From: Escherichia phage vB_EcoM-Ro157lw
Length of the DNA: 64,000 nt
Sequence record: MH051335.1
Strand: one strand, 5' to 3'
The position numbers and the translations under genes are program-made. Positions within the stretch are counted from its first letter, which is position 1; each line of letters begins with the position of its first letter. A model generated the notes under the pieces. That model saw only the letters and a program-made list of their open reading frames with translations. It was not told where the DNA came from and did not search any database. Below, piece after piece: positions 464-62,922 of this stretch.

Positions 464-674
464 TTTCTTTCCACTCCACAAATGTACTGCTACTTGTTTC
501 TCTATTTAGCAGGTATCTGCCGCGCATTCCACGAAGGCTGAATTCAACCGTCGATGGATTAGATTTTGAAAGCCACATCACTTGACCGTCGAACGGTCCG
601 CCAACGCATGTGTATTTGGCCTTTGGCTCACTCCTTTTGGGCCTCTTTGCCCGCTCTTTGATTGATAGTCTCAT
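453..674 (-). CDS. hypothetical basic protein (73 aa)
   Basis: ORF in six-frame track; Lys/Arg-rich N-terminus; overlaps neighbours by a few nt as in an operon. Confidence 0.35.
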   Translation of the reverse strand: MRLSIKERAKRPKRSEPKAKYTCVGGPFDGQVMWLSKSNPSTVEFSLRGMRGRYLLNRETSSSTFVEWKENGK

Positions 675-889
675 CAGTCTTCACCTTGAGATTCAAGACA
701 AGTAAGAACAAGCCACGTCATCGGAAGAATCAAAACCAGAGAAATAAGTGACCAAATGGACCAACACAAGATGACAGACTTGAATGTGTGAACGTCGCCA
801 AACGCAGCAGTGAAACAAAATCCCATTACGAAAGCAATCGCTGTGGAGTGATTATCAATGGCTTTGATGGCGCGGTCGATGAGTTTCAT
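674..889 (-). CDS. small membrane protein with two predicted transmembrane helices and charged C-terminus; holin-like
   Basis: 71 aa; hydrophobic stretches AIAFVMGFCFTAAFG and VILCWSIWSLISLVLILPMTWLVL; acidic C-terminal tail; size and topology as in class II holins. Confidence 0.4.
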   Translation of the reverse strand: MKLIDRAIKAIDNHSTAIAFVMGFCFTAAFGDVHTFKSVILCWSIWSLISLVLILPMTWLVLTCLESQGED

Positions 890-1067: not shown

Positions 1068-2528
1068 ATGAATAAAATATTAACACATAATTGGAAAGTC
1101 ATGTACCAGTTGAATCCTGCTTTAAGAGAAGTCTGGAAGACGAAAGCGCGATACAAAGTCATATACGGCGGTCGTGCATCTTCCAAATCGCACGATGCCG
1201 CTGGTTTTGCTATTTATTTGGCGGCAAACTTCAAATTAAAATTCCTTTGCGTTCGACAATTCCAGAACAAGATTTCTGAATCAGTATATACGCTATTAAA
1301 AGATAAAATAGAGATTTCTGATTTTAAAGACGAGTTCAACTTATTAAAGAACTCTATTGAACACAAAAGAACAAAATCTGAATTTTTATTTTACGGTATC
1401 GCACGCAACGTTGACGAAATCAAATCAACAGAAGGTGTTGATGTTCTTTGGCTTGAAGAAGCGCATGCACTGACTGAAGAGCAATGGGACATCATTGAGC
1501 CGACAATTCGTAAGGAAGGGTCCGAAATATGGATCATATTTAACCCTGATGAAGAGGCTGATTTTGTCTACCAGAACTTTGTCATGCGACCGCCGAAGAA
1601 TGCCATCGTTAAGAAGATTAACTGGCAGGACAACCCATTCTTGTCGCAAACAATGCTGGATGTTATAGCTGGCATGTATGAGCGCGACCCGAAAAAGGCA
1701 GAACACGTTTATGGCGGAGTACCGAAGACTGGCGGCGACAAGTCGGTCATCAACCGTGCATTTGTCAAGGCCGCGCTAAACCTCCACAAACACCCTACGC
1801 TGGGGTGGAGCTTGTCAGGGTCTAACCGTATAGGCTTCGACGTGGCGGACGACGGCGACGACTTAAACGCCACAGCGTTTGTCACAGGCAACGTATTACG
1901 TGGCATCAAGACATGGGAAGGTCTGGAAGATGAATTGCTTAAGTCCGCAAGCGGAGTTTGGAAAGACGCATTGACATTCGGCGCATCAATCACCTATGAC
2001 GCCATCGGTGTTGGTGCATTTGCTGGTTCAAAATTTGATGAGCTTAATGAGTATGCAATCCATGAAAATCCAACATTCCCAAGAATCGAATTTAATGCGT
2101 TCAACGCGCAAGGTGCTGTTGATGATCCTGATGACGTTTTCCTTGAGTTACCACACGTTGAAATACTCAATAAAGACCATTTCGCAAACATAAAAGCGCA
2201 AAAATGGACTGAGATTGCCGAACGATTCAGAAAGACATATGAGTATGCGACAGGGCAAGCCGTATATCCGACCGATGAGTTGATTTCCATCGACACAGAC
2301 GGCATCCCAGAACTTGGTATTCCCGCTTGGTCTGCCGAAGAAATTGAGACGTTTCTTTTTGAGATGTCAGCACCGCGCAAAGACACGTCTGTTCTTGGTA
2401 AGTTCAAAGTTGAATCGAAAAAAGATATGGCAAAGCGTGGAGTCAAATCGCCTAACAAAGCGGACGCAGCAATCATGGCATTGATGAAACCAATTGTTGC
2501 AGCATCCGGCTTCTTCTCTAACCTTTAA
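1068..2528 (+). CDS. terL: terminase large subunit (ATPase plus nuclease)
   Basis: Walker A-like GGRASSKS near N-terminus, Walker B-like VLWLEEAH, acidic nuclease-type C-terminal half; first gene of the structural module. Alternative start at 1101. Confidence 0.85.
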   Translation: MNKILTHNWKVMYQLNPALREVWKTKARYKVIYGGRASSKSHDAAGFAIYLAANFKLKFLCVRQFQNKISESVYTLLKDKIEISDFKDEFNLLKNSIEHKRTKSEFLFYGIARNVDEIKSTEGVDVLWLEEAHALTEEQWDIIEPTIRKEGSEIWIIFNPDEEADFVYQNFVMRPPKNAIVKKINWQDNPFLSQTMLDVIAGMYERDPKKAEHVYGGVPKTGGDKSVINRAFVKAALNLHKHPTLGWSLSGSNRIGFDVADDGDDLNATAFVTGNVLRGIKTWEGLEDELLKSASGVWKDALTFGASITYDAIGVGAFAGSKFDELNEYAIHENPTFPRIEFNAFNAQGAVDDPDDVFLELPHVEILNKDHFANIKAQKWTEIAERFRKTYEYATGQAVYPTDELISIDTDGIPELGIPAWSAEEIETFLFEMSAPRKDTSVLGKFKVESKKDMAKRGVKSPNKADAAIMALMKPIVAASGFFSNL

Positions 2529-2531
2529 CAA

Positions 2532-2771
2532 TTAAAGCATTCCGTGCTGAAGGTCGAGCTTTCTTGCGGCAAACGACCTGGCACGGAATCGCTTACCCGC
2601 CCTTACTGCCTGTCGAATTTTCTTTTGCAAACACTTACGGTCAAAATCGTTGCGGTCGACGGCTTCGAGTAAATCGCGACGCAGTGCACCCAGTGTCGAC
2701 TTATCGGAGACTTCGACGCCGAGCGCGGCTGCAACATCTTTCAAAACATCGAGTTCGGTTAAAGTTCTCAT
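2532..2771 (-). CDS. hypothetical protein (79 aa) with SAP/HeH-like N-terminus and basic C-terminus
   Basis: ORF antisense to the structural operon; N-terminal LTELDVLKDVAAALGVEVSDKSTLGALRRDL resembles a helix-extension-helix DNA-binding motif. Confidence 0.35.
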   Translation of the reverse strand: MRTLTELDVLKDVAAALGVEVSDKSTLGALRRDLLEAVDRNDFDRKCLQKKIRQAVRAGKRFRARSFAARKLDLQHGML

Positions 2772-3346: not shown

Positions 3347-5722
3347 ATGAAAATTCTTGGCATAAAACTCTGGGAGAAGACGCAACCAGAAGCCGAACCA
3401 GCGGAGATGCCGCCAGGCGACCCATTGGCACCGTTTGAACGCCTTGAAAGGCGCGGCAGCGGTCAACGCTGGGAAAAGACTGAAAGCAATCGACCGACCT
3501 TTAAAACGGTTGATGACTTCCCTTTATATGAGCCTGATATTAATGGCGATGGTGTTGCAATCATAAAAGGTCGTTCAGTCGATTCCGCAACAGTATCCAA
3601 AAAGGTTATGGATAATGCCTTAAAGAACATCAGTTCAGAAGGGCAAGTCAACCCATACACAGTACCTATTCAACTTCAAAACTGGTATTTGTCACAGTCA
3701 TTCATCGGCTATCAAGCTTGCGCAATTATAGCGCAGCACTGGCTGGTGAACAAGGCTTGTTCCATGGTAGGCCGCGATGCGGTCCGTAAAGGCTGGGAAG
3801 TTAAATCCAGTTCTGAGTCAGAATTGTCAGTACAAGCCAGCGAACGCCTAAAGCAAATTGATAAAGAATTTAATATCAAAGAGCACTTAGTTGAAGCCGA
3901 ACGATTCAAAAATATTTTTGGTATCCGCGTCATCATATTTGATGTGCGTAGCGATGACCCAGAATATTACAGCAAGCCTTTTAACATTGATGGTGTGACA
4001 AAGGGGTCTTATAAGGGAATCATTCAGGTTGACCCTTATTGGATGATGCCATTTTTGACGTCTGAAAACACCGCCGACCCTGCATCACAGCACTTCTATG
4101 ATCCAGAATACTGGGTGATCAGTGGACAACGTTATCATCGAAGTCACCTCATCATCTTGCGCAATGATGAGCCAGCTGATATTCTCAAGCCAACTTATAT
4201 TTACGGCGGCATTCCTCTGACTCAGCAGATTTATGAACGCATCTATGCCGCTGAACGTACCGCTAACGAAGCGCCATTGCTGGCGATGTCCAAGCGTACA
4301 ACCACGCTGCGGACCGACGTTGACAAGGCTATTGCCAATGAGCGGTCTTTTGCAGAACGTCTGATGATGTGGATCAAGTACCGCGACAACTATGCAGTCA
4401 AAGTGCTTGGCCAAAAAGAAGAGATGGACCAGTTTGACATCAACTTGTCAGACTTCGACAGCATCATCATGAACCAGTACCAGCTTGTGGCCGCAATCGC
4501 AAAAGTTCCGTCGACCAAACTGCTTGGGACTTCGCCAAAAGGCTTTAACGCCACTGGTGAATTCGAGATGGTCAGCTATCACGAAGAGTTGGAAACGTGC
4601 CAGCAGCATGACCTGACAAAAATTCTCGACCGCCATTACAAAATCCTTCTCAAATCAGAAGGGGTGGATGTCGATGTTAAGGTTGCATGGGAACCAGTTG
4701 GCTCACTTACTGCTACTCAACTTGCAGAAATCAATGATAAGCGAGCCAACACTGGCAAAACTCTTATTGATGCTGGCGTCATTTCTCCTGATGAAGAGCG
4801 CGACCGCATCAAAGACGACAAAAACAGCGGCTACAACCGTCTGCCGGAAGACGCAGCAGAAGAAACCCCAGGGATGTCTCCAGAGAATATGGCATTGCTT
4901 GGCAAGTCTGCTGGTGAAGTCCTGCAAGGTAAGGCCGATATTGAACAGGCGAAAGCTGATGTCGTTAAGATGGGCGGCCAGTTCTATAGCGAAACAGGTA
5001 TTATGCCAGAGGGTGCCGCGCGTGGTGAGTTGGCGGAAAACCCTGACAAGGCGCCTGTCGAAATCAACATGGACGATACCGATGATGAATCAAGCCATCA
5101 GGTTGATGTCCTAACGCAGTTGAAAGAAGGGCTGGAGGGTATTGCGGATTACTACCTGAAAGAAGGTCAGGATGTGGATTTTGACCCTCAAAAAGATTCA
5201 CGGTCGGTGCAACCGTCTACCCTTCCAAGCGTTAAAGGACACGTCGTCAACTTACGCCACAACGTGGGTAAAATGGACGCAGCATCATTACCTAAGATGA
5301 AGTTGCACGGAATGATTCTTGGCATTGAGAATCCGCGAAACAGCATTCGTAGAGGAAACAGCCTTGACGGTGAATGGGCCGTGAAGATGCCGCACCACTA
5401 CGGATTCATCAAGGGCACCAAGGGCGCAGACGGTGATGAAGTCGACTGCTTTGTGGGTCCAAATCTGAAGTCGCCGAAAGTCTTTATCGTGAACCAAAAC
5501 GATAACTACTCTGGCGAGTTTGATGAACACAAGTGTATGCTTGGATTCGATTCAGCAGAAGAAGCGAAAGAAGCTTATCAAGCATCATTTGGTAACGGTT
5601 GGAACGGATTCGACTCAATCCACGAATTAGATGTGAACTCATTCAAGGAGTGGTTGAAGGGTGATTGCTCTCAAGCATACGGAGCACTCAATAATCCTAC
5701 TAATTCACCGAAGCAAGGTTGA
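3347..5722 (+). CDS. portal protein with C-terminal inorganic-pyrophosphatase-like extension
   Basis: About 790 aa immediately after the terminase; RBS AGGTGG before ATG 3347; C-terminal 130 aa carry the DGDEVDC motif matching the family I pyrophosphatase signature. Confidence 0.75.
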   Translation: MKILGIKLWEKTQPEAEPAEMPPGDPLAPFERLERRGSGQRWEKTESNRPTFKTVDDFPLYEPDINGDGVAIIKGRSVDSATVSKKVMDNALKNISSEGQVNPYTVPIQLQNWYLSQSFIGYQACAIIAQHWLVNKACSMVGRDAVRKGWEVKSSSESELSVQASERLKQIDKEFNIKEHLVEAERFKNIFGIRVIIFDVRSDDPEYYSKPFNIDGVTKGSYKGIIQVDPYWMMPFLTSENTADPASQHFYDPEYWVISGQRYHRSHLIILRNDEPADILKPTYIYGGIPLTQQIYERIYAAERTANEAPLLAMSKRTTTLRTDVDKAIANERSFAERLMMWIKYRDNYAVKVLGQKEEMDQFDINLSDFDSIIMNQYQLVAAIAKVPSTKLLGTSPKGFNATGEFEMVSYHEELETCQQHDLTKILDRHYKILLKSEGVDVDVKVAWEPVGSLTATQLAEINDKRANTGKTLIDAGVISPDEERDRIKDDKNSGYNRLPEDAAEETPGMSPENMALLGKSAGEVLQGKADIEQAKADVVKMGGQFYSETGIMPEGAARGELAENPDKAPVEINMDDTDDESSHQVDVLTQLKEGLEGIADYYLKEGQDVDFDPQKDSRSVQPSTLPSVKGHVVNLRHNVGKMDAASLPKMKLHGMILGIENPRNSIRRGNSLDGEWAVKMPHHYGFIKGTKGADGDEVDCFVGPNLKSPKVFIVNQNDNYSGEFDEHKCMLGFDSAEEAKEAYQASFGNGWNGFDSIHELDVNSFKEWLKGDCSQAYGALNNPTNSPKQG

Positions 5723-28978: not shown

Positions 28979-29623
28979 ATGATTAACGCAAACGTAATAT
29001 CTAAAGGGACCGGATGCAGCATGGATGTTGCAGAGAAATGGGTGGACCCTTTCAAGCAGGCTTGTGAGCACTACGGAATCAAAAGCAAGAGTGCCATCGC
29101 GGCATTCCTTGCAAACGTAGGAGTAGAGACAGGCAGCTTGAAAACATTTGTGGAAAATCTCAACTACTCTGCACAGGGTCTTGCCAACACGTGGCCTAGT
29201 CGTTACAGCGTCAACGGTCGCTCTGGAAGTTCCCCGAACTCATTGGCCCTGTCGATTGCCCGTAAACCAATGGAAATCGCCAATAATACATATGCAAACC
29301 GCATGGGAAATGGTTCGGTAGCATCTGGCGACGGCTGGAAGTACCGTGGCCGTGGTGCCATTCAGCTGACTGGCAAGGCGAACTATGCGGAATATACGCG
29401 CCAATCAGGCTATGATGCGTTGAACAATCCTGATATTCTGACTGAACCAAAATACATTGCCGACAGCGCGGCATGGTTCTTTAAGAATAGCGGTTGTATC
29501 CCTCTTGCGGATGCAGGAAATTTTGATTCAACCGTTAAGCGAATTAACGGGGCCGCGCCGAACGCAGCAAACCACGGTGAGTTGCGAAGAAAGCGTTACA
29601 AAGATGCACTAGCAGTTATGTAA
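28979..29623 (+). CDS. endolysin, glycoside hydrolase family 19 (chitinase class I-like)
   Basis: GH19-type motifs including YRGRGAIQLTGKANY and AAFLANVGVETG; no signal peptide. Confidence 0.75.
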   Translation: MINANVISKGTGCSMDVAEKWVDPFKQACEHYGIKSKSAIAAFLANVGVETGSLKTFVENLNYSAQGLANTWPSRYSVNGRSGSSPNSLALSIARKPMEIANNTYANRMGNGSVASGDGWKYRGRGAIQLTGKANYAEYTRQSGYDALNNPDILTEPKYIADSAAWFFKNSGCIPLADAGNFDSTVKRINGAAPNAANHGELRRKRYKDALAVM

Positions 29624-29629
29624 GAAAAA

Positions 29630-29643
29630 GGCCCATATGGGCC
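29630..29643. terminator. bidirectional intrinsic terminator between convergent genes
   Basis: Perfect palindrome GGCCCATATGGGCC flanked by A-run upstream and T-run downstream. Confidence 0.6.
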
Positions 29644-29648
29644 TTTGT

Positions 29649-29879
29649 TTATTTTACGGCTTCAACTTGGACGGGCGGAGCGGAACTTGTATCAATGTCT
29701 GGCAAGTCGAAGTAATACCCCGCCATACCAATCACACCCACAATCGCGGCCCGTGCCACCTTGCTGCTAATTGACTCCCCAATAAGCTTTACCAACAGGG
29801 ATAAGATTTGAGACGTCAAAGCCTTTTTCAGCCTTTTGTTTTCTTCCAAATCTTTCTGCATAACTACCACCCATGTCAA
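29649..29879 (-). CDS. small protein with one C-proximal hydrophobic helix; holin or antiholin candidate
   Basis: 76 aa; AAIVGVIGMAGYYF hydrophobic segment; convergent with the endolysin. Confidence 0.35.
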   Translation of the reverse strand: MTWVVVMQKDLEENKRLKKALTSQILSLLVKLIGESISSKVARAAIVGVIGMAGYYFDLPDIDTSSAPPVQVEAVK

Positions 29880-30418
29880 CGCACTTCCTGTGTCTTAACA
29901 TTACCTGAAGCATCTCTCAAGGGCAGTGGATAGTAGGCCATTTGGTAGTCTGATACGCCTTCAATGTGATAAAACACGATTACGTCTTTGCTGTTGATGA
30001 GCATGTTAACGACATCTGATTTATCTTCTGGAGTGAGTATTAGTGCGCCGCCTGTCCTGCTGTCTACTGCAACAGGGTATGTCTTGTCGACAAGGCCGCT
30101 GTCCAATGTATTATACCTGACAACGATTTCAGGGGCATCAACTTTTGCCATTGACATTCCGAACACAAACGACACTACTTGTCGACCGCGATCATTCATT
30201 ACGCACATCTTTTCTTTGTCAAATCTTTCTTTTATTACGTCGTATTTGTTCCAGCAGAACTCAAAGGATTGCCCATTGTTGAAATATCTTGTCAAAACTT
30301 TTGCACTTCCATTCGGCGGCGTAAACATATTTTCAGCCGATGCAGTCTTGGTGAAGAATATAACTGTCAGCATAGCCATGATGATGATCAAAACAATCTT
30401 TAATTTGTTCGCTTTCAT
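29876..30418 (-). CDS. secreted or membrane-anchored protein (180 aa) with N-terminal signal sequence
   Basis: N-terminus MKANKLKIVLIIIMAMLTVIFFTKTASA (basic n-region, hydrophobic core, ASA cleavage-like site). Confidence 0.5.
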   Translation of the reverse strand: MKANKLKIVLIIIMAMLTVIFFTKTASAENMFTPPNGSAKVLTRYFNNGQSFEFCWNKYDVIKERFDKEKMCVMNDRGRQVVSFVFGMSMAKVDAPEIVVRYNTLDSGLVDKTYPVAVDSRTGGALILTPEDKSDVVNMLINSKDVIVFYHIEGVSDYQMAYYPLPLRDASGNVKTQEVR

Positions 30419-30502
30419 TATAATTCACCTTTTGATTATGAATATTAATAGTATAGGCTCAAGGTTTTGAAAGTAAATACGCCGAAAGTAAATAAAAGAA
30501 AA

Positions 30503-30518
30503 GCCGGAAATTTCCGGC
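30503..30518 (-). terminator. intrinsic terminator downstream of the ligase gene
   Basis: Perfect palindrome GCCGGAAATTTCCGGC followed on the minus strand by TTTTCTTTTATTT. Confidence 0.55.
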
Positions 30519-30593
30519 TTTATGTATACACTGTATATTAAATTCTAGAAAACAGCGCGATAGATTATACGCACCAATTATTTATCCAGTGTG

Positions 30594-31571
30594 TTAAAAA
30601 TACTCCATATCGGTGATATCACGGAAGCACTTATACAAGGCAGAGCGCGGCACGTCAACTATGCCAAAGTTAAAGAATTTATATGTCAGATACTTGTTTC
30701 GATAATTCTCGCGATTCTCCCAAAGCATTTTTCTCTCTGCCATAGGCATTGAACCAGCGGAGACGCGGAAGGGAATCATTTCACCTTTCTCATCAACATA
30801 TTTTGGATTGACAACCACAAATGATCCAAGGTATCCTTTTGCAACTAAGCCTTCAGCCTCTTTCGAACGCTTAGTGCGACCCAGCTCATCAATGAATGCT
30901 TCGTTGTTGTTCTCCATCATCTCAACGAAGTCTATGATCAGTCCTTCTTCATCGGTCCACGGCTTGTCCTTCCACACATCACGTGACTTTGGCGTCGCGC
31001 GGCCATGCTTGTATTTGCCCGTCCAAGACTTGCCATACAAGCCTTCATAGCCAAGCTGGTCTGCTTCGATTTGCATCGCCGCGTACTGTTCCATATTTTC
31101 GATGTTTCGATATTCGAGAGCGCGAAGGAATGGGCGTCGACCATGGTTGATGAGGTGCTGATTGACTTCAGCAACTCTAGCGCGATAGTTTGCATAACGT
31201 TTTTCAAAAGGCAAATCAGGGTCGCTGAAGTCATCAAACACCCACCATGTAAAGTTAGTGATTGCATCAGTGTTCATGCATGCAGTATAGGCCTGTTGCA
31301 TGACGTTCTTGTCGTTCGGATTGCCGTCAATTAGCTCTCCATCAAGGCCGTGAATCAATTCACCCAAAAAGAGGAACTCTTTCTTGATTTGAATGTTGCG
31401 CAACGCCATGCCGGACGTGCCCATTGGCAAATTGTCATATGCCATCGCGCGTATGCCATCGACCTTGAATGACAGTCCGCAAGGCAGCGGCACATCTTCG
31501 CCGCGCTCGATGATTTGTTTACGCTGGCACCCTTTCATTGGTTTTAATGCTTTGATTTCTCCTGCCATCAC
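30594..31571 (-). CDS. ATP-dependent DNA ligase
   Basis: Adenylation motif I KVDGIRA (KxDGxR) with Lys nucleophile; size about 325 aa. Confidence 0.8.
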   Translation of the reverse strand: MMAGEIKALKPMKGCQRKQIIERGEDVPLPCGLSFKVDGIRAMAYDNLPMGTSGMALRNIQIKKEFLFLGELIHGLDGELIDGNPNDKNVMQQAYTACMNTDAITNFTWWVFDDFSDPDLPFEKRYANYRARVAEVNQHLINHGRRPFLRALEYRNIENMEQYAAMQIEADQLGYEGLYGKSWTGKYKHGRATPKSRDVWKDKPWTDEEGLIIDFVEMMENNNEAFIDELGRTKRSKEAEGLVAKGYLGSFVVVNPKYVDEKGEMIPFRVSAGSMPMAERKMLWENRENYRNKYLTYKFFNFGIVDVPRSALYKCFRDITDMEYF

Positions 31572-32161
31572 TCAAACTCCTTATTCATCACTTGTTCCAT
31601 TGCATAGGCGTAAGCCTGATCAGTCGATTTGATAAACGTTCCGTTGTACATCACTCCTTTACGGTCCTTGATGTCTTCATAGGCGGCTTGAGCGCAATCA
31701 GACAGTCGAAGTCCATAATCATGCGCTACGCCGGAAAGATAATCGACTGCGGCCATGATGGTGACATCAATATCCATACTCTGATTTTTAGCAATGGCGT
31801 CACCAAGCCGTCCGAGAGTCTTTGCCAAGCGAAGGATAAACGAGTGAGGGTGGGCACCTTTGTCAGCGCAACCGCCGCCGTTGATGTCTTCGATTTTTGC
31901 ACCATTTTGCGCGGCAAGAATAGTTAACACAACAAGGCAATCGCCGATGTCATCCTTGATTGCGGCTTGTAAATCACAGATGGCCTGCTCTGTATATCCG
32001 ATTTCAGGGTCAAAGAACACAAGGTCATGTAATTGATCAATGTGGTCGGTCAACTCCCCAAACTCGCTAATAAGCTTCGGGTATTGGTCCTTAAGGTCGC
32101 AGCCTTGGATGATGTTACGGTCAGAAGCCCACTGGCGAATGTTTGCATAAATCTGGTTCAT
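31568..32161 (-). CDS. mazG: MazG-like nucleoside triphosphate pyrophosphohydrolase
   Basis: EFGEL and DDIGDCLVVL motifs typical of all-alpha NTP pyrophosphohydrolases. Confidence 0.6.
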   Translation of the reverse strand: MNQIYANIRQWASDRNIIQGCDLKDQYPKLISEFGELTDHIDQLHDLVFFDPEIGYTEQAICDLQAAIKDDIGDCLVVLTILAAQNGAKIEDINGGGCADKGAHPHSFILRLAKTLGRLGDAIAKNQSMDIDVTIMAAVDYLSGVAHDYGLRLSDCAQAAYEDIKDRKGVMYNGTFIKSTDQAYAYAMEQVMNKEFE

Positions 32162-32676
32162 TTATTTTCCTTTGATGCATTGAATTGATCGATTTTAATT
32201 TTAGCCTGATTATAAGTATCAATCAAGCTATTAACCTTCTCTTTTAATCGGTTTGTTTCTGCGGCGAACTGAACAAGAAAACTGACATCTTCTTCTGATA
32301 GTCCACAGTTTCCTTCTGGGATAGAGAGGCGTCCAGTGGTCGCAGAGTCGGGCATACTCCTGAGTAATTCACGGGAGCAGCTGAGTTGCTCGCGCAGCTT
32401 GATATTCCCAGACTTGTAACGAGCAATAGTGTCATCAGCAACCAGTTGCGCTTCCTGGCGACCCTTCTCATATGCCGATGCCGATTCAACCTGTAAAGAT
32501 GCAATTTGCTCTTCGAGTGCATTTATCTTGTCCTTACGCTCATTGAGCGATGTCAGATATTGATTATCCTTGGCCAGTGATGCGTTGGTTTGCTGAAGGT
32601 CTTCAACGTATGATCCAGCGGCGAACGCGCCAACAAGGGCCAGAATCTTCAGAAGCGGCACAATTCTTTCTATCAT
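32158..32676 (-). CDS. i-spanin (Rz-like inner-membrane spanin)
   Basis: N-terminal transmembrane helix IVPLLKILALVGAFAAGSYV, then coiled-coil periplasmic domain; a lipoprotein ORF is embedded in the +1 frame. Confidence 0.5.
   Translation of the reverse strand: MIERIVPLLKILALVGAFAAGSYVEDLQQTNASLAKDNQYLTSLNERKDKINALEEQIASLQVESASAYEKGRQEAQLVADDTIARYKSGNIKLREQLSCSRELLRSMPDSATTGRLSIPEGNCGLSEEDVSFLVQFAAETNRLKEKVNSLIDTYNQAKIKIDQFNASKENK
32244..32435 (-). CDS. o-spanin (Rz1-like outer-membrane lipoprotein) fully embedded in the i-spanin gene
   Basis: 63 aa; signal MTLLLVTSLGISS followed by lipobox Cys; Pro-containing short mature peptide; different frame inside 32158-32676. Confidence 0.4.
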   Translation of the reverse strand: MTLLLVTSLGISSCASNSAAPVNYSGVCPTLRPLDASLSQKETVDYQKKMSVFLFSSPQKQTD

Positions 32677-41589: not shown

Positions 41590-42462
41590 CTATTTATTGA
41601 AATTAATATTATGGGTGTTAACAAGACGTTCACACATGGCGCTGTAAACACCATCATCGTGTATAGAGTCTTCGTGCTTCAGGCCGCTGATTGCGAAGCG
41701 TGTAAGCTTGACAATCTTAAGCTCGAACAGATGCCACATGTGGTAGTCTTCCGGCGTTTTCAACGTCACGCCATTAGGGAAAAGCACTTGCATAACCTGA
41801 CCTACCATCACAGCGTTATCGCCATAGACAGCGTTGCGCTCACGGAAGGTTGCTGCCATTGCATCAAGAATATCGGCGGCAGTTGCCGGAGATTGTTCAA
41901 CTTCCACAGCCTTAGTCTCTTCTTGCCCTGTTGCGCTTGGATCAATTGCTAATTGTTGCACCACTTCACCTGCCTTGCAAAGATTAAATGTAAAAGCGAT
42001 TTTATTTTGAGCAACGGAATTATAATACAATGCTTCATCTTGCATCCGCGCGAGTACGTCTTGTCGGTCGTCGAATACATTGATGATTCGATAATCGCCG
42101 TGCCGCAATGCGTGCGATAGCCATGCAGATTTCATAATAGTTGATGGACGTTTGTCGCCATAGTCTCTCATCTTGATTGTAAATTCATCAAAAGGAAAAA
42201 CATTATCCAGACGTTCAAAAGTCACTTGTCTGTATTTTTCTGGCCTTGCAGTCCAATATTCAACCGCCTCACCGCGAAGAGATGCCGACTCTACTGCTGA
42301 TGCAATGTGAGGATAGAACTGATCATAACCAATACCGCTGTGATAGTCATCATAGTCTGACGACGGACCTGCCACCTTTATGCGGTCTAAGCGCCAACGG
42401 TCATCAAACAGCGTTCCGTCAAGGTCGAATACATTTAAGATTTCGCTGTTTTTAATGCTCAT
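41590..42462 (-). CDS. HAD-family phosphatase domain fused to a C-terminal domain of unknown function
   Basis: Motif I FDLDGTL (DxDGT), later NVFDDRQD; C-terminal 140 aa alpha-helical with acidic patches. Confidence 0.5.
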   Translation of the reverse strand: MSIKNSEILNVFDLDGTLFDDRWRLDRIKVAGPSSDYDDYHSGIGYDQFYPHIASAVESASLRGEAVEYWTARPEKYRQVTFERLDNVFPFDEFTIKMRDYGDKRPSTIMKSAWLSHALRHGDYRIINVFDDRQDVLARMQDEALYYNSVAQNKIAFTFNLCKAGEVVQQLAIDPSATGQEETKAVEVEQSPATAADILDAMAATFRERNAVYGDNAVMVGQVMQVLFPNGVTLKTPEDYHMWHLFELKIVKLTRFAISGLKHEDSIHDDGVYSAMCERLVNTHNINFNK

Positions 42463-43289
42463 CCTTTTGATACTCCATCTTTAGCAACTGGATTGTTGGT
42501 GATTGGCATCGCACTCCAAAACTGGATGCGCAACTCTTCTTGCTGTGCCGTGGTATCCATCCAATCACGATACCAAGGGCAATGGGCTTTGCCATGACGA
42601 GGAAACGCGCATTTACCCATACCGATGCATTGCGGCTGTAATAATGGATTTGCCCACGGGTGCACCTTGAGGACTTCCGCAACCATTGCGCGGAATACTT
42701 CTTGATACTCGCCTTGAGTGCGCGTGCACAAGCGGTTTGACGCCATCTGCTGCAGCGTGCGCAAGTTGAACTTTGCCATGATATGCGTTTGCATATTAGA
42801 AGGCAACACGGCACGTGCATCTTGAATCTCTGCGCCAGCCGCGCGAAGCTCTTGATACAAAGCATCGATAGTCGCCATCGCATCATCCCACTTCTCTGCT
42901 AAGTATTGCTTTTGAAGTAAAGATTGGTGCTCTTCATCAGTCCCAAACGCTTCACATTGATCAATCAACTCTGGATTTTGGTGTGAGAATGCCTTCGGAC
43001 GAATCGCATCAAATGCAGACGACTCCTGAGCGCGGCTGGTACGTTCTTGATATGCGCCTGTGCGTGTGCGCACCATCTGATGGGTCATGTTCTTTGAAAC
43101 ATCGGTGATGTCAAAGATATAGTCCACAAAGTCAAAAGGCGACTTGATTGTATCAAGCATGTAGCGCCAGTGCTCTTGCTTCTCTGATTCCGTCATCTCA
43201 GAGACAGGCTTGCCAGTCATGCGCGTGTTCTTTGTTTCCAGCAAAAGGTCAAGTGCATCTTGGGTGTATCGAATTAATTTAACTTTCAT
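42459..43289 (-). CDS. thyX: flavin-dependent thymidylate synthase ThyX-like, with Cys-rich C-terminal extension
   Basis: RTRTGAYQERTSR aligns with ThyX motif RHRxxxYxQxSxR; VLPSNMQTH...PW matches the conserved ThyX C-terminal block; extra CIGMGKCAFPRHGKAHCPW tail. Confidence 0.65.
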   Translation of the reverse strand: MKVKLIRYTQDALDLLLETKNTRMTGKPVSEMTESEKQEHWRYMLDTIKSPFDFVDYIFDITDVSKNMTHQMVRTRTGAYQERTSRAQESSAFDAIRPKAFSHQNPELIDQCEAFGTDEEHQSLLQKQYLAEKWDDAMATIDALYQELRAAGAEIQDARAVLPSNMQTHIMAKFNLRTLQQMASNRLCTRTQGEYQEVFRAMVAEVLKVHPWANPLLQPQCIGMGKCAFPRHGKAHCPWYRDWMDTTAQQEELRIQFWSAMPITNNPVAKDGVSKG

Positions 43290-43302: not shown

Positions 43303-43749
43303 TTAACGGTAGTTCACTAGTTGCTGATCACCAGAGAAGGTGCAATGATAAACAAATTGTGCATTATAAAGCAACTGAAAACTTTTCTTTGGTTCACTAT
43401 TAGCACTCATCGATGTGAATACTTCTGCACCGGAACGGTTTTCACCGATTAAGTTGACAAAGCCGCCAGTTGTGCGAGGTTGAACGAAAGTGAAACGTTG
43501 CATCCACGGAGTCCGGTTGACACCTTTTCCGGTGAATCCTTGAATCTGAATATTCAGACCTTCTTGCTCATTCACACCGATGTAAGTGGTAATCTTCGCA
43601 CCAGTCGTTGCTGCGGTCTTACCGTCCATCGCTTCGCAATCATAAACAGCGATTGAATCGGAAGTACGGATGGCAGCTTCAGTCGCTTCCATATACATGG
43701 TGCCGAGAATAGCAGTTGCGGCAAGCGCGATTCCAGTGATTCGTTTCAT
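43303..43749 (-). CDS. secreted protein (148 aa) with N-terminal signal peptide
   Basis: MKRITGIALAATAILGTMYMEATEA signal-like N-terminus. Confidence 0.45.
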   Translation of the reverse strand: MKRITGIALAATAILGTMYMEATEAAIRTSDSIAVYDCEAMDGKTAATTGAKITTYIGVNEQEGLNIQIQGFTGKGVNRTPWMQRFTFVQPRTTGGFVNLIGENRSGAEVFTSMSANSEPKKSFQLLYNAQFVYHCTFSGDQQLVNYR

Positions 43750-43814
43750 TTTCGTTTCCTCTATGAGTTCTGCTTCAATGATTAAAGTATACGCCCATTG
43801 AAGCAGAAAGCAAA

Positions 43815-44810
43815 TTATTTATTAGCAATATAAGCAAATTTTTGATAGTTATTTGCTTTGATGAGTTTTTCAACTTCAACAAGATCATGAGCGACGTCAT
43901 CAAGCAAAATGTTTCGCCAGGTAGCAAATCGACCGACACTAAACACGTTCAAATCCATAGTCAGCTGCAGGAGTAAGGCGTGTCGCAAGTCTTTCGGAAT
44001 GTCGACAATCTTTCCATATTTCTGGTCGACCTTTTCAACTTCTTCAAGAGCGATGTCACTCCATGAGAGGCCAAATGCCGTCAGCACCTCGTCGACTTCT
44101 GCGCGCAGCTTGATGTCACGGTAACGAGTGATGCCGCCAGCGGCTTCAACTGCAGCTTCACTTACGCTGACCAAAGGAATTGTTTCAATGATAAGCGTGT
44201 CACCAGTAATTGATGCGCGGTAAGTTCTGACGGAGTAGTCAGGGAAGTAAATTGTCTGATACAAATCACACTTACGTTTAATCTTAAAGCGGTAAACACG
44301 AATGTTTGCTTTATCAAATGAGAAATCAAGCTTTTGATCAATCCCAGCCAGCTTCATCATGACTGGCAGCGGCGACGTGTTGATGATTGGCGTCTCGCTA
44401 TAGCCGCAAAGAGTATCAACCGGAGTATTAAAGAATATGCGGTCACCCAGTTTGTCGACAAGCTGATCATAAAAGTCATCAGGCGCAATATAACGCGTTG
44501 CAGTCTTAAGATTCATGATTGAACGGCTGCCAAACTGATTGGTGACCTTCATGGAATACATATTGGCAAGGTTGATTGGGCAATGGTCGTGGTAGTAGTT
44601 GCCGCGAAAATACACAGCCTTGTCAACTGTCACTGCCTTAAAAGGGATTCCGGTAATACGGCTTACTTCTTCGCCACGGAAGCGTAGCAGCGCCTTGTGC
44701 TGTTGCGCTCGCTCCCCTGCTTCGTACACAACAGAGTTCGGGAAGTGACACGCTGTGATAAGTCCTGCCAATCCGCCGCCGATAATCATTACAGGTTGTT
44801 TCATGTTCAT
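43815..44810 (-). CDS. FAD/NAD(P)-binding Rossmann-fold oxidoreductase
   Basis: N-terminal dinucleotide-binding motif VMIIGGGLAGL; family not assignable by eye. Confidence 0.5.
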   Translation of the reverse strand: MNMKQPVMIIGGGLAGLITACHFPNSVVYEAGERAQQHKALLRFRGEEVSRITGIPFKAVTVDKAVYFRGNYYHDHCPINLANMYSMKVTNQFGSRSIMNLKTATRYIAPDDFYDQLVDKLGDRIFFNTPVDTLCGYSETPIINTSPLPVMMKLAGIDQKLDFSFDKANIRVYRFKIKRKCDLYQTIYFPDYSVRTYRASITGDTLIIETIPLVSVSEAAVEAAGGITRYRDIKLRAEVDEVLTAFGLSWSDIALEEVEKVDQKYGKIVDIPKDLRHALLLQLTMDLNVFSVGRFATWRNILLDDVAHDLVEVEKLIKANNYQKFAYIANK

Positions 44811-44942
44811 TTGTCCTTTGTGGGTGATATGAGAAGTATAATAGCTAAATTATTTTACAGCAACAAGTCATTTTATTTAGTACAGATGAAAAAAGACCCA
44901 CAACAAGTGTGGGTCAATTACCGCTGCATAACCGTCCTAAGG

Positions 44943-45782
44943 TTATTCCGCTTGATCACCGTCTTCGGCATCTTCGTTGGATTCAACATCGACAAACTCG
45001 ATGTGGCCCATCTCTTCCAGCTTGCTCAGGTAGGAGCGAACGGAAGCGCCAAACAGTTGATCTTTAACTTTTTCGCCCAGCTCATCGATAGACTGCGCCA
45101 CGCCAACTTCGCCTTCTTTGATCGCCGCCAGAACGCGTCCACGGGTGGAATGCTCTTGCGGCTGGCTCAGGCCATTGCCAGTGTAGATGAAGTGGGTTGC
45201 TTTTGCGCGACGCTGACCGTTTGCCTTTTTAGCAGCCTTACGTTCTGCGATGGCTTTGCGACGTTCTTCAGCTTCTTTCTTACGCTGTTCTTTCTGCTTT
45301 TCTGCAGCTTCTTTAGCCGCAATCTTAGCAGCTTCACGCTCTGCCTTGCGTTTCGCTTTAGCTTCTTCTTTGGCCTTCTCTTTTTCGGCCTTCGCTGCAG
45401 CACGGGCTTGATCACGCTCTGCTTTCTTAGCAGCAGCTTGTTCAGCTTTCAGGCGCTTGGCTTCTTCTTTGGCCTTTGCCTTTTCGATTTCTTTTGCTGC
45501 TTTAGCGGCTTCACGCTCTGCTTTCTTAGCAGCTGCTTTTTCTGCACGCTCTTTGGCTTTCTTCGCTGCTTCTTCAGCACGTTTCTGTGCTTTCTCATCA
45601 GCGGCCTGCTTGCGTTTCAGTGCAGCTTCTTCACGCTTGGCTTGTTTTTCCTGCTCACGCTTCTGGCGTTTTTCTTCGGCTTCTTTCTTTTTAGCCAGGC
45701 GTTTTTCTTCAGCCACGCGACGACGTTCTGCTGCAGCTGCTTGTTTTTCTTCTTTAGATAATACTTTGATTGCTTCGGCCAT
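44943..45782 (-). CDS. Lys/Ala/Glu-rich low-complexity protein with small globular C-terminal domain
   Basis: About 200 residues of KxAExxAK-type repeats, then about 80 non-repetitive C-terminal residues. Confidence 0.5.
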   Translation of the reverse strand: MAEAIKVLSKEEKQAAAAERRRVAEEKRLAKKKEAEEKRQKREQEKQAKREEAALKRKQAADEKAQKRAEEAAKKAKERAEKAAAKKAEREAAKAAKEIEKAKAKEEAKRLKAEQAAAKKAERDQARAAAKAEKEKAKEEAKAKRKAEREAAKIAAKEAAEKQKEQRKKEAEERRKAIAERKAAKKANGQRRAKATHFIYTGNGLSQPQEHSTRGRVLAAIKEGEVGVAQSIDELGEKVKDQLFGASVRSYLSKLEEMGHIEFVDVESNEDAEDGDQAE

Positions 45783-45941
45783 ATTCACAGTCCTTAAATA
45801 AATTAGTTTATTTTATATTCCCCGTTTGGGATAACTTAATTATGCCTTCAGTCGCCGCCAGTAGCAACTAAAAACTCTGGCGGCAATGCCACTTTAATTA
45901 AACTGATTTTCAGTTTTATTTTTCGTAAATTTACGTCAACA

Positions 45942-61353: not shown

Positions 61354-61728
61354 ATCGGTAATACGACGGGGAAGGCTGCAACCATAAACGCGTTAGAAAG
61401 TGTATTATTATAAGTCATCTTTTAGTCACTTTACGTAACAATTTACGACCTTCAGCCGTCCAGTCGAACGACTCCACCAGCAGATTTGCACTATAACCTA
61501 AGACGATGCGCCCTTTCTCGTTATCAACCCGCCAACAAGTCTCGAATAGCATTCGATTTGCACTATTAACTATCGCCGCAGCGCGCGTTGGGTAAGCGCA
61601 ATTTGCACTATGGTCGTAAAGGGATAAGGTGCGACCACTTCCGATGGACAACGTAGCGATGAGAATAAGCGTATTCATAAGCCACCAATTTGCACTATGA
61701 AAAGCGACCCCGAAGGGCCGCCATTCGA

Positions 61729-62355: not shown

Positions 62356-62496
62356 AATAAACTCCTAGTTTGGGAGCGGCGTTAACGACCTATTCGCTAA
62401 CTCATCCCGTCCCGATATGAGTACATTATAATATAGTGTAGAAAAAAGTAAAGCACTTTTTCGATAAAAATGCGATAAATTATTTTATCTTTTTTC

Positions 62497-62524
62497 TTTA
62501 CTTCTTCGTACACTCGCGTATACT
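62497..62524 (+). promoter_or_regulatory. sigma70-like promoter (TTTACT-16 nt-TATACT), copy 1 of a duplicated promoter-leader module
   Basis: Shares TTCGTACACT spacer core and downstream TTTATATCGAGA with the copy at 62894-62922. Confidence 0.4.
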
Positions 62525-62893: not shown

Positions 62894-62922
62894 TTTACTT
62901 ATTCGTACACTAAGACTATAAT
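62894..62922 (+). promoter_or_regulatory. sigma70-like promoter (TTTACT-17 nt-TATAAT), copy 2
   Basis: Hexamers read directly; same flanking sequence as copy 1. Confidence 0.4.

What the first reader, a model, noticed from the sequence alone, without database searches (positions are those of the whole stretch)
29876..30418. Signal-peptide proteins encoded by a lytic phage
The 180-aa protein here and the 148-aa protein at 43303-43749 both begin with clear signal-peptide-like segments. Exported phage proteins are often superinfection-exclusion factors, receptor-masking proteins or periplasmic lysis modulators.
Basis: inference. Interest (0 to 1): 0.4.

Follow-up and report, generated by a model that had tools for sequence, protein, structure and literature searches.

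The report
Two unannotated exported phage proteins
Two "hypothetical" genes of this E. coli Wifcevirus phage almost certainly encode proteins exported to the periplasm; one founds a small, previously undescribed family that always sits with a lysis-related membrane protein next to the endolysin gene, but neither has a known function.

Summary
The window is a Wifcevirus (E. coli myovirus). Both ORFs exist, are under purifying selection and start with Sec-type signal peptides. Every public record calls them "hypothetical".

Protein A (29876-30418, minus strand, 180 aa):
- It has the most hydrophobic N-terminus in the window and a predicted cleavage site ASA|E.
- In relatives the leader diverges but keeps its charged/hydrophobic/small-x-small layout. 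The mature part keeps two cysteines 17 residues apart.
- A confident AlphaFold model (pLDDT 84) is a beta-rich domain closest to two periplasmic docking modules, Bartonella IalB and probably Vibrio MotY-N. The similarity is moderate.
- The family occurs in Wifcevirus, Kylevirus, Serratia phage MTx and metagenomic relatives. It is always placed ligase | A | small ORF | convergent endolysin, in its own promoter-terminator unit.
- The small ORF is a homologue of PA1-LRP, an experimentally lysis-related protein. Pbunavirus has that ORF but not A.

Protein B (43303-43749, minus strand, 148 aa) is a Wifcevirus-only orphan with a weaker but plausible signal peptide and two cysteines. It lies in a nucleotide-metabolism operon. 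Kylevirus has unrelated secreted proteins in the same slot.

Function is not established. A periplasmic partner of the lysis-related protein is the best guess for A; superinfection exclusion is not excluded. Interest is moderate.

The parts
30335..30418 (-). Signal peptide of protein A (codons 1-28, MKANKLKIVLIIIMAMLTVIFFTKTASA, predicted SPase I cleavage ASA|EN)
   Evidence: n-charge +3, 16-aa uncharged core, A at -3/-1. The layout is conserved in all homologues although the sequence diverges. It forms a separate low-confidence helix in the AF2 model.
29876..30334 (-). Mature protein A (residues 29-180 plus stop): beta-rich periplasmic domain with conserved C55 and C72 and motifs MFxxPN, RYNTLDxG, PEDxxD, YYPLPxR
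30450..30477 (-). Sigma-70-type promoter of the A/LRP unit (TTTACT-16 nt-TATACT)
   Evidence: The -35 and -10 elements are invariant in relatives whose coding dS is saturated. The motif occurs 4 times in the window against 0.04 expected.
30490..30521 (-). Intrinsic terminator ending the upstream ligase operon (AAAGCCGGAAATTTCCGGCTTT plus T-tract)
   Evidence: Annotated in Mansfield. Conserved in L003-L005.
29649..29861 (-). 70-aa small ORF co-transcribed with A: homologue of Pantoea phage PA1-LRP (lysis-related protein) and of Pbunavirus gp47/gp48. Basic N-terminus, weakly hydrophobic helices, Pro-rich tail.
   Evidence: phrog_5165 E 3.4e-8. tblastn to 328 phage records including Pbunavirus and Pantoea phages. 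The PA1 ORF matches the paper's primers. Hydropathy.
29627..29646 (.). Bidirectional terminator between the A/LRP unit and the convergent endolysin gene
   Evidence: annotated on both strands in Mansfield.
28979..29623 (+). Endolysin (GH19), convergent neighbour; context only
   Evidence: Pfam PF00182 E 1.2e-7; annotations.
43675..43749 (-). Predicted signal peptide of protein B (codons 1-25, MKRITGIALAATAILGTMYMEATEA, predicted cleavage TEA|AI)
   Evidence: n-charge +2, 17-aa uncharged core, T at -3 and A at -1. Residues 1-26 are invariant across Wifcevirus.
43303..43674 (-). Mature protein B (residues 26-148 plus stop), with Cys at 38 and 136
   Evidence: dN/dS 0.02-0.13. Present in all 28 Wifcevirus records and nowhere else.
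43815..44810 (-). Glf-like FAD enzyme, first gene of the operon that contains B; context only
   Evidence: Mansfield annotation: HHpred 100% to E. coli UDP-galactopyranose mutase. Terminator at 44895-44915 and a weak promoter upstream.
42459..43289 (-). ThyX thymidylate synthase immediately downstream of B; context only

Best explanation
Both genes encode Sec-dependent proteins whose signal peptides are cleaved by signal peptidase I, releasing soluble, probably disulfide-bonded proteins into the host periplasm during infection.

Protein A is the founding member of a small, unannotated phage family. Its mature part is a beta-rich domain of about 150 aa resembling periplasmic docking modules (IalB, probably MotY-N). 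It is made from an autonomous sigma-70-driven two-gene unit together with a small, basic, weakly hydrophobic membrane-active protein, a homologue of PA1-LRP, which is toxic, permeabilises membranes and enhances endolysin-dependent lysis. The most likely role is that mature A acts from the periplasmic side on this LRP-like protein, or on the envelope site where it works, and so tunes when or how the envelope is breached. That would make it a periplasmic lysis modulator, analogous in logic but not in ancestry to T4 RI acting on holin T.

Protein B is a genus-restricted periplasmic accessory protein co-expressed with nucleotide-metabolism genes. Its role is unknown; it probably targets the envelope.

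Shown: gene reality, leader features, family distribution, synteny, promoter and terminator conservation, fold. Inferred: export, cleavage, the disulfide, and every functional statement.
For: Export:
- Leader features and their conservation despite sequence turnover.
- A conserved Cys pair in the mature part.
- The AF2 model has a detached leader.
- The nearest folds are periplasmic envelope proteins (PMC7327166; bioRxiv 10.64898/2025.12.04.692373).
- Carpasina gp33 carries the A-like domain behind an N-terminal membrane anchor and a Pro-rich linker, which again places it in the periplasm.

Lysis link:
- The order ligase | A | LRP-like | convergent endolysin is kept in Wifcevirus, three metagenomic lineages at 40-63% identity, Kylevirus and MTx. 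Meanwhile the endolysin type changes: GH19, GH108 or an unassigned 150-aa protein.
- The small ORF is a homologue of PA1-LRP, whose expression is toxic, permeabilises cells and boosts endolysin killing (PMC11538084).
- The unit has its own terminator-promoter-terminator frame with invariant -35 and -10 elements.
- In Pbunavirus 14-1 the orthologous LRP gene gp48 is an experimentally mapped monocistronic transcription unit (PMC10914365).
- No canonical holin is annotated in this phage group.

Not a virion component: neither protein was detected in the vB_Eco4M-7 or ECML-117 proteomes, which did detect the endolysin and several enzymes.
Against: - No experiment addresses A or B.
- Pbunavirus has the LRP-like gene without A, so A is not required for LRP function.
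- LRP-like proteins are only weakly hydrophobic and are not proven holins. The PA1 phenotypes are modest and come from overexpression.
- The promoter resembles three promoters in a putative early region at 62.4-62.9 kb. That would fit an early function such as superinfection exclusion better than lysis.
- B's c-region has two acidic residues, and B has no structure model.
- No SignalP-type predictor was run.
Confidence: 0.4

Rival explanations
1. A and/or B are superinfection-exclusion or envelope-protection factors. They would be made early from host-type promoters, exported to the periplasm, and there block genome entry or the tail-associated lytic transglycosylase of incoming phages, comparable in logic to T4 Sp or Imm.
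For: - The conserved sigma-70 promoter of A belongs to the same motif family as three promoters in a probable early region.
- A is dispensable in the sister genus Pbunavirus, which is typical of accessory genes.
- A's G+C content is slightly low: 41.8% against 46.1%, the 12th percentile.
- B is genus-specific, and Kylevirus carries different secreted proteins in the same slot, the kind of turnover seen for host-interface genes.
- Neither protein was found in the phage proteomes.
Against: - No similarity to any known exclusion protein or PADLOC/PHROG family.
- A's strict linkage to the LRP-like gene and the endolysin over large evolutionary distances is not explained by this model.
- B is under strong purifying selection within the genus (dN/dS about 0.07) and shows no sign of an arms race.
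Confidence: 0.25
2. A is a periplasmic adaptor that rewires a host envelope machine unrelated to lysis or exclusion, such as Tol-Pal, peptidoglycan synthesis or another periplasmic complex. It would use an IalB/MotY-N-like docking fold. Its position beside the endolysin would be a historical accident of insertion at an operon boundary.
For: - The nearest folds are docking modules of periplasmic assemblies: IalB-domain RgsG at the growth pole with Tol-Pal, and MotY-N on the flagellar P ring.
- The insertion site lies between two terminators, a permissive location.
- Phage 14-1 gp48 was flagged as a moron-like independent unit.
Against: - Fold similarity is moderate and sequence identity is 4-7%.
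- No host partner is suggested by any data.
- The same gene order in at least four genera, plus Carpasina, argues for a functional coupling.
Confidence: 0.2
3. The N-terminal segment of A is an uncleaved signal anchor, so A stays tethered to the inner membrane. B's segment is not a functional export signal, so B is cytoplasmic.
For: - A's hydrophobic core is unusually hydrophobic: KD15 is 3.27 against 1.5-2.4 for reference signal peptides.
- Carpasina gp33 appears to be a tethered version.
- B's hydropathy is at the low end and its c-region is acidic.
- B sits among cytoplasmic enzymes.
Against: - A's uncharged core is only 16 residues and is followed by a canonical A-x-A site kept in all homologues.
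- Kylevirus and MTx leaders are much less hydrophobic.
- B has the full n/h/c layout, two cysteines placed like those in other secreted proteins of this slot, and an invariant leader.
Confidence: 0.1

Closest known systems
Bartonella invasion-associated locus B protein (IalB; PDB 3dtd; Pfam PF06776 / COG5342) and IalB-domain proteins such as Sinorhizobium RgsG
   Different: 7% identity. No Pfam hit for any family member even at E <= 1. Foldseek does not recover it. IalB proteins are bacterial, mainly alphaproteobacterial, and have no known mechanism.
N-terminal domain of Vibrio MotY (T-ring of the polar flagellar motor; PDB 8z5n chain A; chain identity inferred from its length and name)
   Different: 4% identity. 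MotY has an additional OmpA-like peptidoglycan-binding domain that A lacks. There is no flagellar context here.
Phage T4 RI antiholin (periplasmic regulator of holin T)
   Same: A small phage protein exported to the periplasm that, in the proposed model, would control a membrane lysis protein from the periplasmic side. It is encoded by a lytic myovirus.
   Different: No sequence or fold similarity was found. RI uses a signal-anchor-release domain, whereas A has a classical cleavable leader. The partner here is not a proven holin. No lysis-inhibition phenotype is known for Wifcevirus.
Phage T4 Sp (spackle) and Imm superinfection-exclusion proteins
   Same: Exported or membrane proteins of a lytic myovirus, made from host-type promoters, that act in the envelope.
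   Different: No similarity in sequence. Sp is helical (my own knowledge) while A is beta-rich. No exclusion phenotype has been tested.
Pantoea phage PA1-LRP (lysis-related protein; PMC11538084) and Pbunavirus gp47/gp48
   Same: These are homologues of the 70-aa ORF immediately downstream of A, in the same position next to the endolysin. PA1 and Kyle also encode A homologues directly upstream.
   Different: They are the partner gene, not A itself. The paper did not examine the A homologue. Pbunavirus lacks A.

Membership tests
Sec-type signal peptide cleaved by signal peptidase I | Positively charged n-region | tested here: met
   A +3, B +2; all full-length A homologues +1 to +3, except the N-terminally shortened P0005.
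Sec-type signal peptide cleaved by signal peptidase I | Uninterrupted hydrophobic h-region shorter than a typical membrane anchor | tested here: met
   A has 16 uncharged residues (KD10 3.54) and B has 17 (KD10 2.27).
Sec-type signal peptide cleaved by signal peptidase I | Small neutral residues at -3 and -1 followed by a polar mature N-terminus | tested here: met
   A has ASA|E. Homologues have ARA|A, AKA|D, ASA|E, SRA|Q, VRA|A, AVA|Q and ADA|S. B has TEA|A, with Glu at -2 and -5, which is less typical.
Sec-type signal peptide cleaved by signal peptidase I | Actual translocation and cleavage | not testable with these tools
   Needs fractionation, PhoA fusion or N-terminal mass spectrometry. 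No SignalP-type predictor was available.
Bacterial lipoprotein (signal peptidase II) | Lipobox ending in Cys at +1 | tested here: not met
   There is no Cys in or just after the leaders of A or B. By contrast the embedded o-spanin has ...LGISSC.
Tat signal peptide | Twin-arginine motif in the n-region | tested here: not met
   The leaders MKANKLK and MKR contain no RR.
IalB family (Pfam PF06776) | Significant match to the family HMM | tested here: not met
   No Pfam hit at E <= 1 for the window protein or five other members. No PDB sequence-profile hit to 3dtd.
IalB family (Pfam PF06776) | Shared fold | tested here: inconclusive
T4 RI-type antiholin | Homology to RI, or an N-terminal signal-anchor-release domain | tested here: not met
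   No PHROG lysis-inhibition family hit. The window leader is strongly hydrophobic with a canonical cleavage site and is not SAR-like.
T4 RI-type antiholin | Binds the periplasmic domain of the holin and delays lysis | not testable with these tools
   Needs genetics or an interaction assay. Only co-transcription with the LRP-like gene is shown.
Known anti-phage defence or superinfection-exclusion proteins | Match to PADLOC or PHROG models of such proteins | tested here: not met
   No PADLOC hits. PHROG hits are insignificant and are to families of unknown function.
PA1-LRP / phrog_5165 family (applies to the downstream 70-aa ORF) | Sequence homology and position next to the endolysin | tested here: met
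   phrog_5165 E 3.4e-8. tblastn to Pbunavirus and Pantoea phages. The shared motif IGE[ST]VKD[KR]xxR is visible. Synteny.
Holin (applies to the downstream 70-aa ORF) | At least one bona fide transmembrane domain and hole-forming activity | tested here: inconclusive
   19-aa hydropathy reaches 1.6 only in the MTx homologue (window 1.23-1.34; below 1.2 in PA1 and KTN6). The match to a holin PHROG is E 0.094. PA1-LRP permeabilises cells when overexpressed.

The most novel reading that the evidence does not exclude
A and the LRP-like protein together form a previously unrecognised two-component lysis-control module of the Pbunavirus-like phage supergroup. In it, a weakly hydrophobic, non-canonical membrane-disrupting protein would replace the missing classical holin. 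In the enterobacterial and Xanthomonas branches, a periplasmic IalB/MotY-N-like domain would regulate it; that domain is secreted in Wifcevirus, Kylevirus and MTx and membrane-tethered in Carpasina. This could relate to the very fast lysis reported for Wifcevirus.
Probability: 0.2. Interest if true: 0.65.

Novelty: new member of a known kind. Interest (0 to 1): 0.4.

Why it matters
Wifcevirus and its Pseudomonas relatives (Pbunavirus) are used or proposed for phage therapy and biocontrol. Their holin and lysis control are still unidentified, and Wifcevirus is reported to lyse unusually fast (PMC11990801; PMC7048862).

This work shows that two universally "hypothetical" genes encode periplasmic proteins. 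One belongs to a conserved unit with an experimentally lysis-related protein beside the endolysin. That gives concrete, cheap targets for deletion and expression experiments, and the BASEL isolates Bas98-101 now allow them in E. coli K-12. It also defines a new phage protein family with a confident structural model.

If the proteins turn out to act in superinfection exclusion instead, that matters for designing phage cocktails.

Tried and rejected
- Pfam, PHROGs, PADLOC and NCBIfam scans of A and B gave no usable family.
- PDB sequence searches gave nothing for B and only noise for the A profile.
- The first AlphaFold run, with a four-sequence alignment, was unusable (pLDDT 42.7). It was superseded by the nine-sequence run.
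- Foldseek against the PDB gave only noise (best E 0.015, TM 0.23). The afdb50 library was unavailable.
- The exhaustive profile search of 1.84 billion representatives added few members. It also returned one spurious Ig-like-repeat protein, P0011, which I rejected as repeat-driven and borderline.
- A and B are not related to each other (hhalign E 0.39).
- B is not detectably related to the Kylevirus secreted proteins in the same slot (BLASTP and hhalign), so I claim only a positional and architectural parallel.
- Carpasina gp33 is not supported as an A homologue at sequence level, only by structure and synteny.
- A as a specific inhibitor or chaperone of the endolysin: rejected as unlikely, because the endolysin family changes (GH19, GH108, other) while A is retained.
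- A or B as virion proteins: rejected as unlikely, because both are absent from two proteomes that detected even non-structural proteins.
- No supplementary transcript tables were available to date the orthologous promoter in phage 14-1.
- The simple sigma-70 scan found no promoter upstream of Pbunavirus gp47.

Full report
**Identity of the window.** The region around both genes is 91-99.5% identical to 28 GenBank records of the genus Wifcevirus, E. coli/Shigella myoviruses of about 68 kb. The best match is RCIP0363. The exact protein sequences occur in phages WFH and Ro157lw. Wifcevirus are virulent, O-antigen-dependent relatives of the Pseudomonas genus Pbunavirus (PMC11990801).

**The observation.** Both ORFs exist as described on the minus strand: A at 29876-30418 (180 aa) and B at 43303-43749 (148 aa). 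Each has a Shine-Dalgarno sequence at the right distance.
- Both are under purifying selection. dN/dS is 0.11-0.17 for A, including a comparison with a relative whose synonymous sites are saturated, and 0.02-0.13 for B.
- Every record and every public copy calls them "hypothetical".
- The vB_Eco4M-7 record notes a signal peptide for the spanin but not for these genes.

**Signal peptide of A.** The leader is MKANKLK / IVLIIIMAMLTVIFFT / KTASA|ENMF.
- It has a +3 n-region, a 16-residue uncharged core and Ala at -3 and -1. There is no lipobox Cys and no twin arginine.
- Its hydropathy is the highest of about 100 ORFs in the window.
- In eleven homologues at 33-63% identity the leader sequence is almost entirely replaced. 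The charge, the 16-21 aa core and a small-x-small site remain (ARA|A, AKA|D, ASA|E, SRA|Q, VRA|A, AVA|Q, ADA|S).
- Between the window and Bas99 the leader accumulates non-synonymous changes about six times faster than the mature part (dN 0.133 against 0.021).
- All full-length members keep exactly two mature cysteines 17 residues apart. In the model these lie on neighbouring antiparallel strands. A disulfide is therefore plausible, but I did not measure it.

**Signal peptide of B.** The leader is MKR / ITGIALAATAILGTMYM / EATEA|AIRT. Charge is +2, the core is 17 aa and hydropathy is 2.27. The two Glu in the c-region make the call less secure. The mature part has one Cys 13 residues after the predicted site and one 12 residues before the C-terminus. 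The leader is invariant across the genus. No SignalP-type tool was available, so export remains a strong inference for A and a good one for B.

**Distribution of A.** No Pfam, PADLOC or NCBIfam family matches, and PHROG hits are insignificant.
- Searching 5.8 billion proteins found only five clusters.
- An exhaustive HMM search of 1.84 billion representatives found six proteins, one of them spurious.
- A broadened profile found twelve.
- tblastn against phage genomes adds Pantoea phages Kyle and PA1 (Kylevirus; 33-37% identity, E about 1e-30).
- Serratia phage MTx CPT_MTx_059 is the best hit of the structural search (Foldseek E 6e-8) and is confirmed by profile comparison (hhalign 92.9%, E 3.8e-7, 143 columns).
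- Xanthomonas phage Carpasina gp33 (253 aa) matches by structure only (E 4e-3), not by sequence. It has an N-terminal hydrophobic anchor, a Pro/Ala-rich linker of about 55 residues and then the A-like domain.

**Structure of A.** With four sequences AlphaFold failed (pLDDT 42.7). With nine diverse sequences it gave pLDDT 84.1 and pTM 0.75, with the mature domain mostly above 90. The model has a detached leader helix (3-21), a disordered linker (19-31) and a beta-rich domain with one helix (130-141).
- From its name and 270-residue length that chain is most likely MotY, whose N-terminal domain docks onto MotX, FlgI and FlgT in the periplasm. I could not verify the chain assignment.
- IalB-domain proteins are periplasmic or inner-membrane-associated, with unknown mechanism.
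- Foldseek against the PDB found nothing significant, so the similarity is moderate. It supports an envelope location and a docking-type domain, not a specific function.

**Genomic context of A.** Reading along the minus strand, the ligase gene ends at 30594 and a strong intrinsic terminator follows (30521-30500). Next come a sigma-70-like promoter (TTTACT-16-TATACT, 30477-30450), gene A and a 70-aa ORF (29861-29649) whose start lies 14 nt after A's stop. A bidirectional terminator (29627-29646) is shared with the convergent endolysin gene.
- The terminator, the -35 TATTTACTT, the -10 TATA(C/A)T and the Shine-Dalgarno are invariant in metagenomic relatives whose coding sequences are saturated at synonymous sites.
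- The promoter motif occurs four times in the window against 0.04 expected. The other three copies are in a divergent intergenic cluster at 62.4-62.9 kb in front of small genes, probably an early region.
- The order ligase | A | small ORF | convergent endolysin is kept in L003, L004 and L005 (63-40% identity), in Kyle, PA1 and MTx, and with extra genes in Carpasina. The endolysin itself is GH19, GH108 or an unassigned 150-aa protein.
- Pbunavirus (phiKTN6, 14-1) has ligase | terminator | about 200-280 nt | small ORF | endolysin, and no A.
- In 14-1 that small ORF (gp48) was mapped experimentally as a monocistronic transcription unit and flagged as possibly moron-like (PMC10914365).
- A's G+C content is mildly low: 41.8% against 46.1%, the 12th percentile.

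**The partner gene.** The 70-aa ORF matches phrog_5165 (E 3.4e-8) and only weakly a holin PHROG (E 0.094). It has homologues in 328 phage records, mostly Pbunavirus.
- The PA1 homologue (73 aa, MVRRRR...KVEQQK, hydrophobic part RTILISCIGAFGYYYDLAPA) corresponds exactly to the primers given for "PA1-LRP" in PMC11538084.
- That paper reports growth inhibition, beta-galactosidase leakage and cell death on expression, and stronger killing with the endolysin. A bacterial two-hybrid assay showed no direct LRP-endolysin interaction.
- The family has a very basic N-terminus, a conserved IGE(S/T)VKD(K/R)xxR motif between two short hydrophobic stretches, and a Pro-rich, variable C-terminal tail.
- Its hydropathy is below a usual transmembrane threshold in most members. 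It is therefore lysis-related and membrane-active, but not a demonstrated holin.
- No holin is annotated in Mansfield, Bas99 or MTx.
- A 71-aa ORF with two hydrophobic segments (one above the 19-aa transmembrane threshold) at 674-889 is an untested alternative candidate.

**Protein B.** B occurs in all 28 Wifcevirus records at 93% identity or more. It occurs in no other phage, and in only one 90% cluster among 5.8 billion proteins. It has no family or PDB match and is unrelated to A.
- It is the second gene of an operon that starts after a terminator (44915-44895) and a weak sigma-70-like element. The operon contains a Glf-like FAD enzyme, B, ThyX, a phosphatase/kinase, a short-chain dehydrogenase and a glyoxalase-like protein.
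- In Kylevirus the same slot holds other small proteins with signal peptides and N- and C-proximal cysteines: KYLE_77 and KYLE_76 in Kyle, and a 138-aa KYLE_76 homologue in PA1. They have no detectable similarity to B.
- MTx has an 86-aa protein without a signal peptide there.
- My last structure job went to A, so B has no model.

**Proteomics.** Mass spectrometry of vB_Eco4M-7 and ECML-117 preparations detected structural proteins and also the endolysin, a helicase, the glyoxalase-like protein and a reductase. It did not detect A (gp66/gp64), the small ORF or B (gp81). This is weak negative evidence against a virion role.

**Interpretation.** Export of A to the periplasm is very likely (about 0.9 in my judgement). 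Export of B is likely (about 0.75).
- For A I favour a periplasmic modulator acting with the LRP-like protein at the lysis step. The coupling of the two genes beside the endolysin persists over distances at which sequence similarity is lost and the endolysin family is exchanged. The partner also has experimental lysis-related phenotypes.
- Three points count against this. Pbunavirus lacks A. The promoter is host-type and possibly early. There is no functional data at all.
- Superinfection exclusion and host-envelope rewiring therefore remain live rivals.
- For B only "secreted accessory protein" can be said.

**Novelty.** The A family is undescribed and now has a confident model. As a kind of thing, an exported accessory protein of a lytic phage, it is not new.

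Noticed in passing
window 674-889 (-): A 71-aa ORF with two hydrophobic segments (about residues 16-31; and 39-57, the latter above the 19-aa transmembrane threshold) and no PHROG match. It is a more classical-looking holin candidate than the LRP-like ORF, and no holin is annotated in any Wifcevirus record examined.
   Followed up: partly
window 62425-62452 (-), 62497-62524 (+), 62894-62922 (+): Three promoters of the same TTTACT-N16-18-TATAMT type as the gene A promoter, sharing an extended TTTACTTnTTyGTACACT motif. They sit in a divergent intergenic cluster in front of small genes, probably the early region.
   Followed up: partly
window 43815-44810 (-): A Glf-like FAD enzyme (the Mansfield record reports HHpred 100% to E. 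coli UDP-galactopyranose mutase) lies directly upstream of secreted protein B. BASEL Wifcevirus isolates require the O16 O-antigen, which contains galactofuranose (my own knowledge). A link to surface-glycan biology or to DNA modification is possible but untested. The window protein has no NCBIfam match; it was not scanned against Pfam here.
   Followed up: no
window 43770-43806: An 11-bp perfect inverted repeat (CTGCTTCAATG ... CATTGAAGCAG, 15-nt loop containing TATACT) between the Glf-like gene and B, with no T-tract after it. It could be an RNA processing or attenuation element.
   Followed up: no
window 61415-61678 (-): An 87-aa ORF starting MNTLILIATLSIGSG, with two cysteines. The N-terminus is weakly signal-like (no positive charge, KD15 1.48) and there is no PHROG match. 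It may be a third small exported protein or may have a mis-called start.
   Followed up: partly
window 32158-32676 (-) and embedded 32244-32522 (-): An i-spanin (phrog_1327, E 9e-27) with an embedded o-spanin carrying a lipobox (…LGISSC). These are the other envelope-targeted proteins of this phage and lie two genes upstream of the ligase, so the lysis genes are scattered over about 3.7 kb on two strands.
   Followed up: yes
L018 (Xanthomonas phage Carpasina NC_047962) about 3430-3677 (+), and 2325-2663 (+): An unannotated LRP-like ORF (…LIKLVGESVKGRLLRAALIG…) lies between gp33 and the endolysin. gp34 (112 aa, phrog_4915, unknown function) has several hydrophobic segments and looks holin-like, so gp34, gp33, the LRP-like ORF and the endolysin may form a lysis cassette.
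   Followed up: partly
P0003 (148 aa) and P0007 (96 aa), metagenomic copies of protein A: A frameshifted copy and a truncated copy of A on otherwise long Wifcevirus contigs (32.7 kb and 68.6 kb). They are either assembly errors or naturally inactivated alleles. The latter would indicate that A is dispensable.
   Followed up: no
window 44943-45788 (-): A 281-aa Lys/Glu/Ala-rich protein annotated as 'TolA protein' in vB_Eco4M-7. It was detected by mass spectrometry in both published proteomes (score 1197 in vB_Eco4M-7), and its function is unknown.
   Followed up: no
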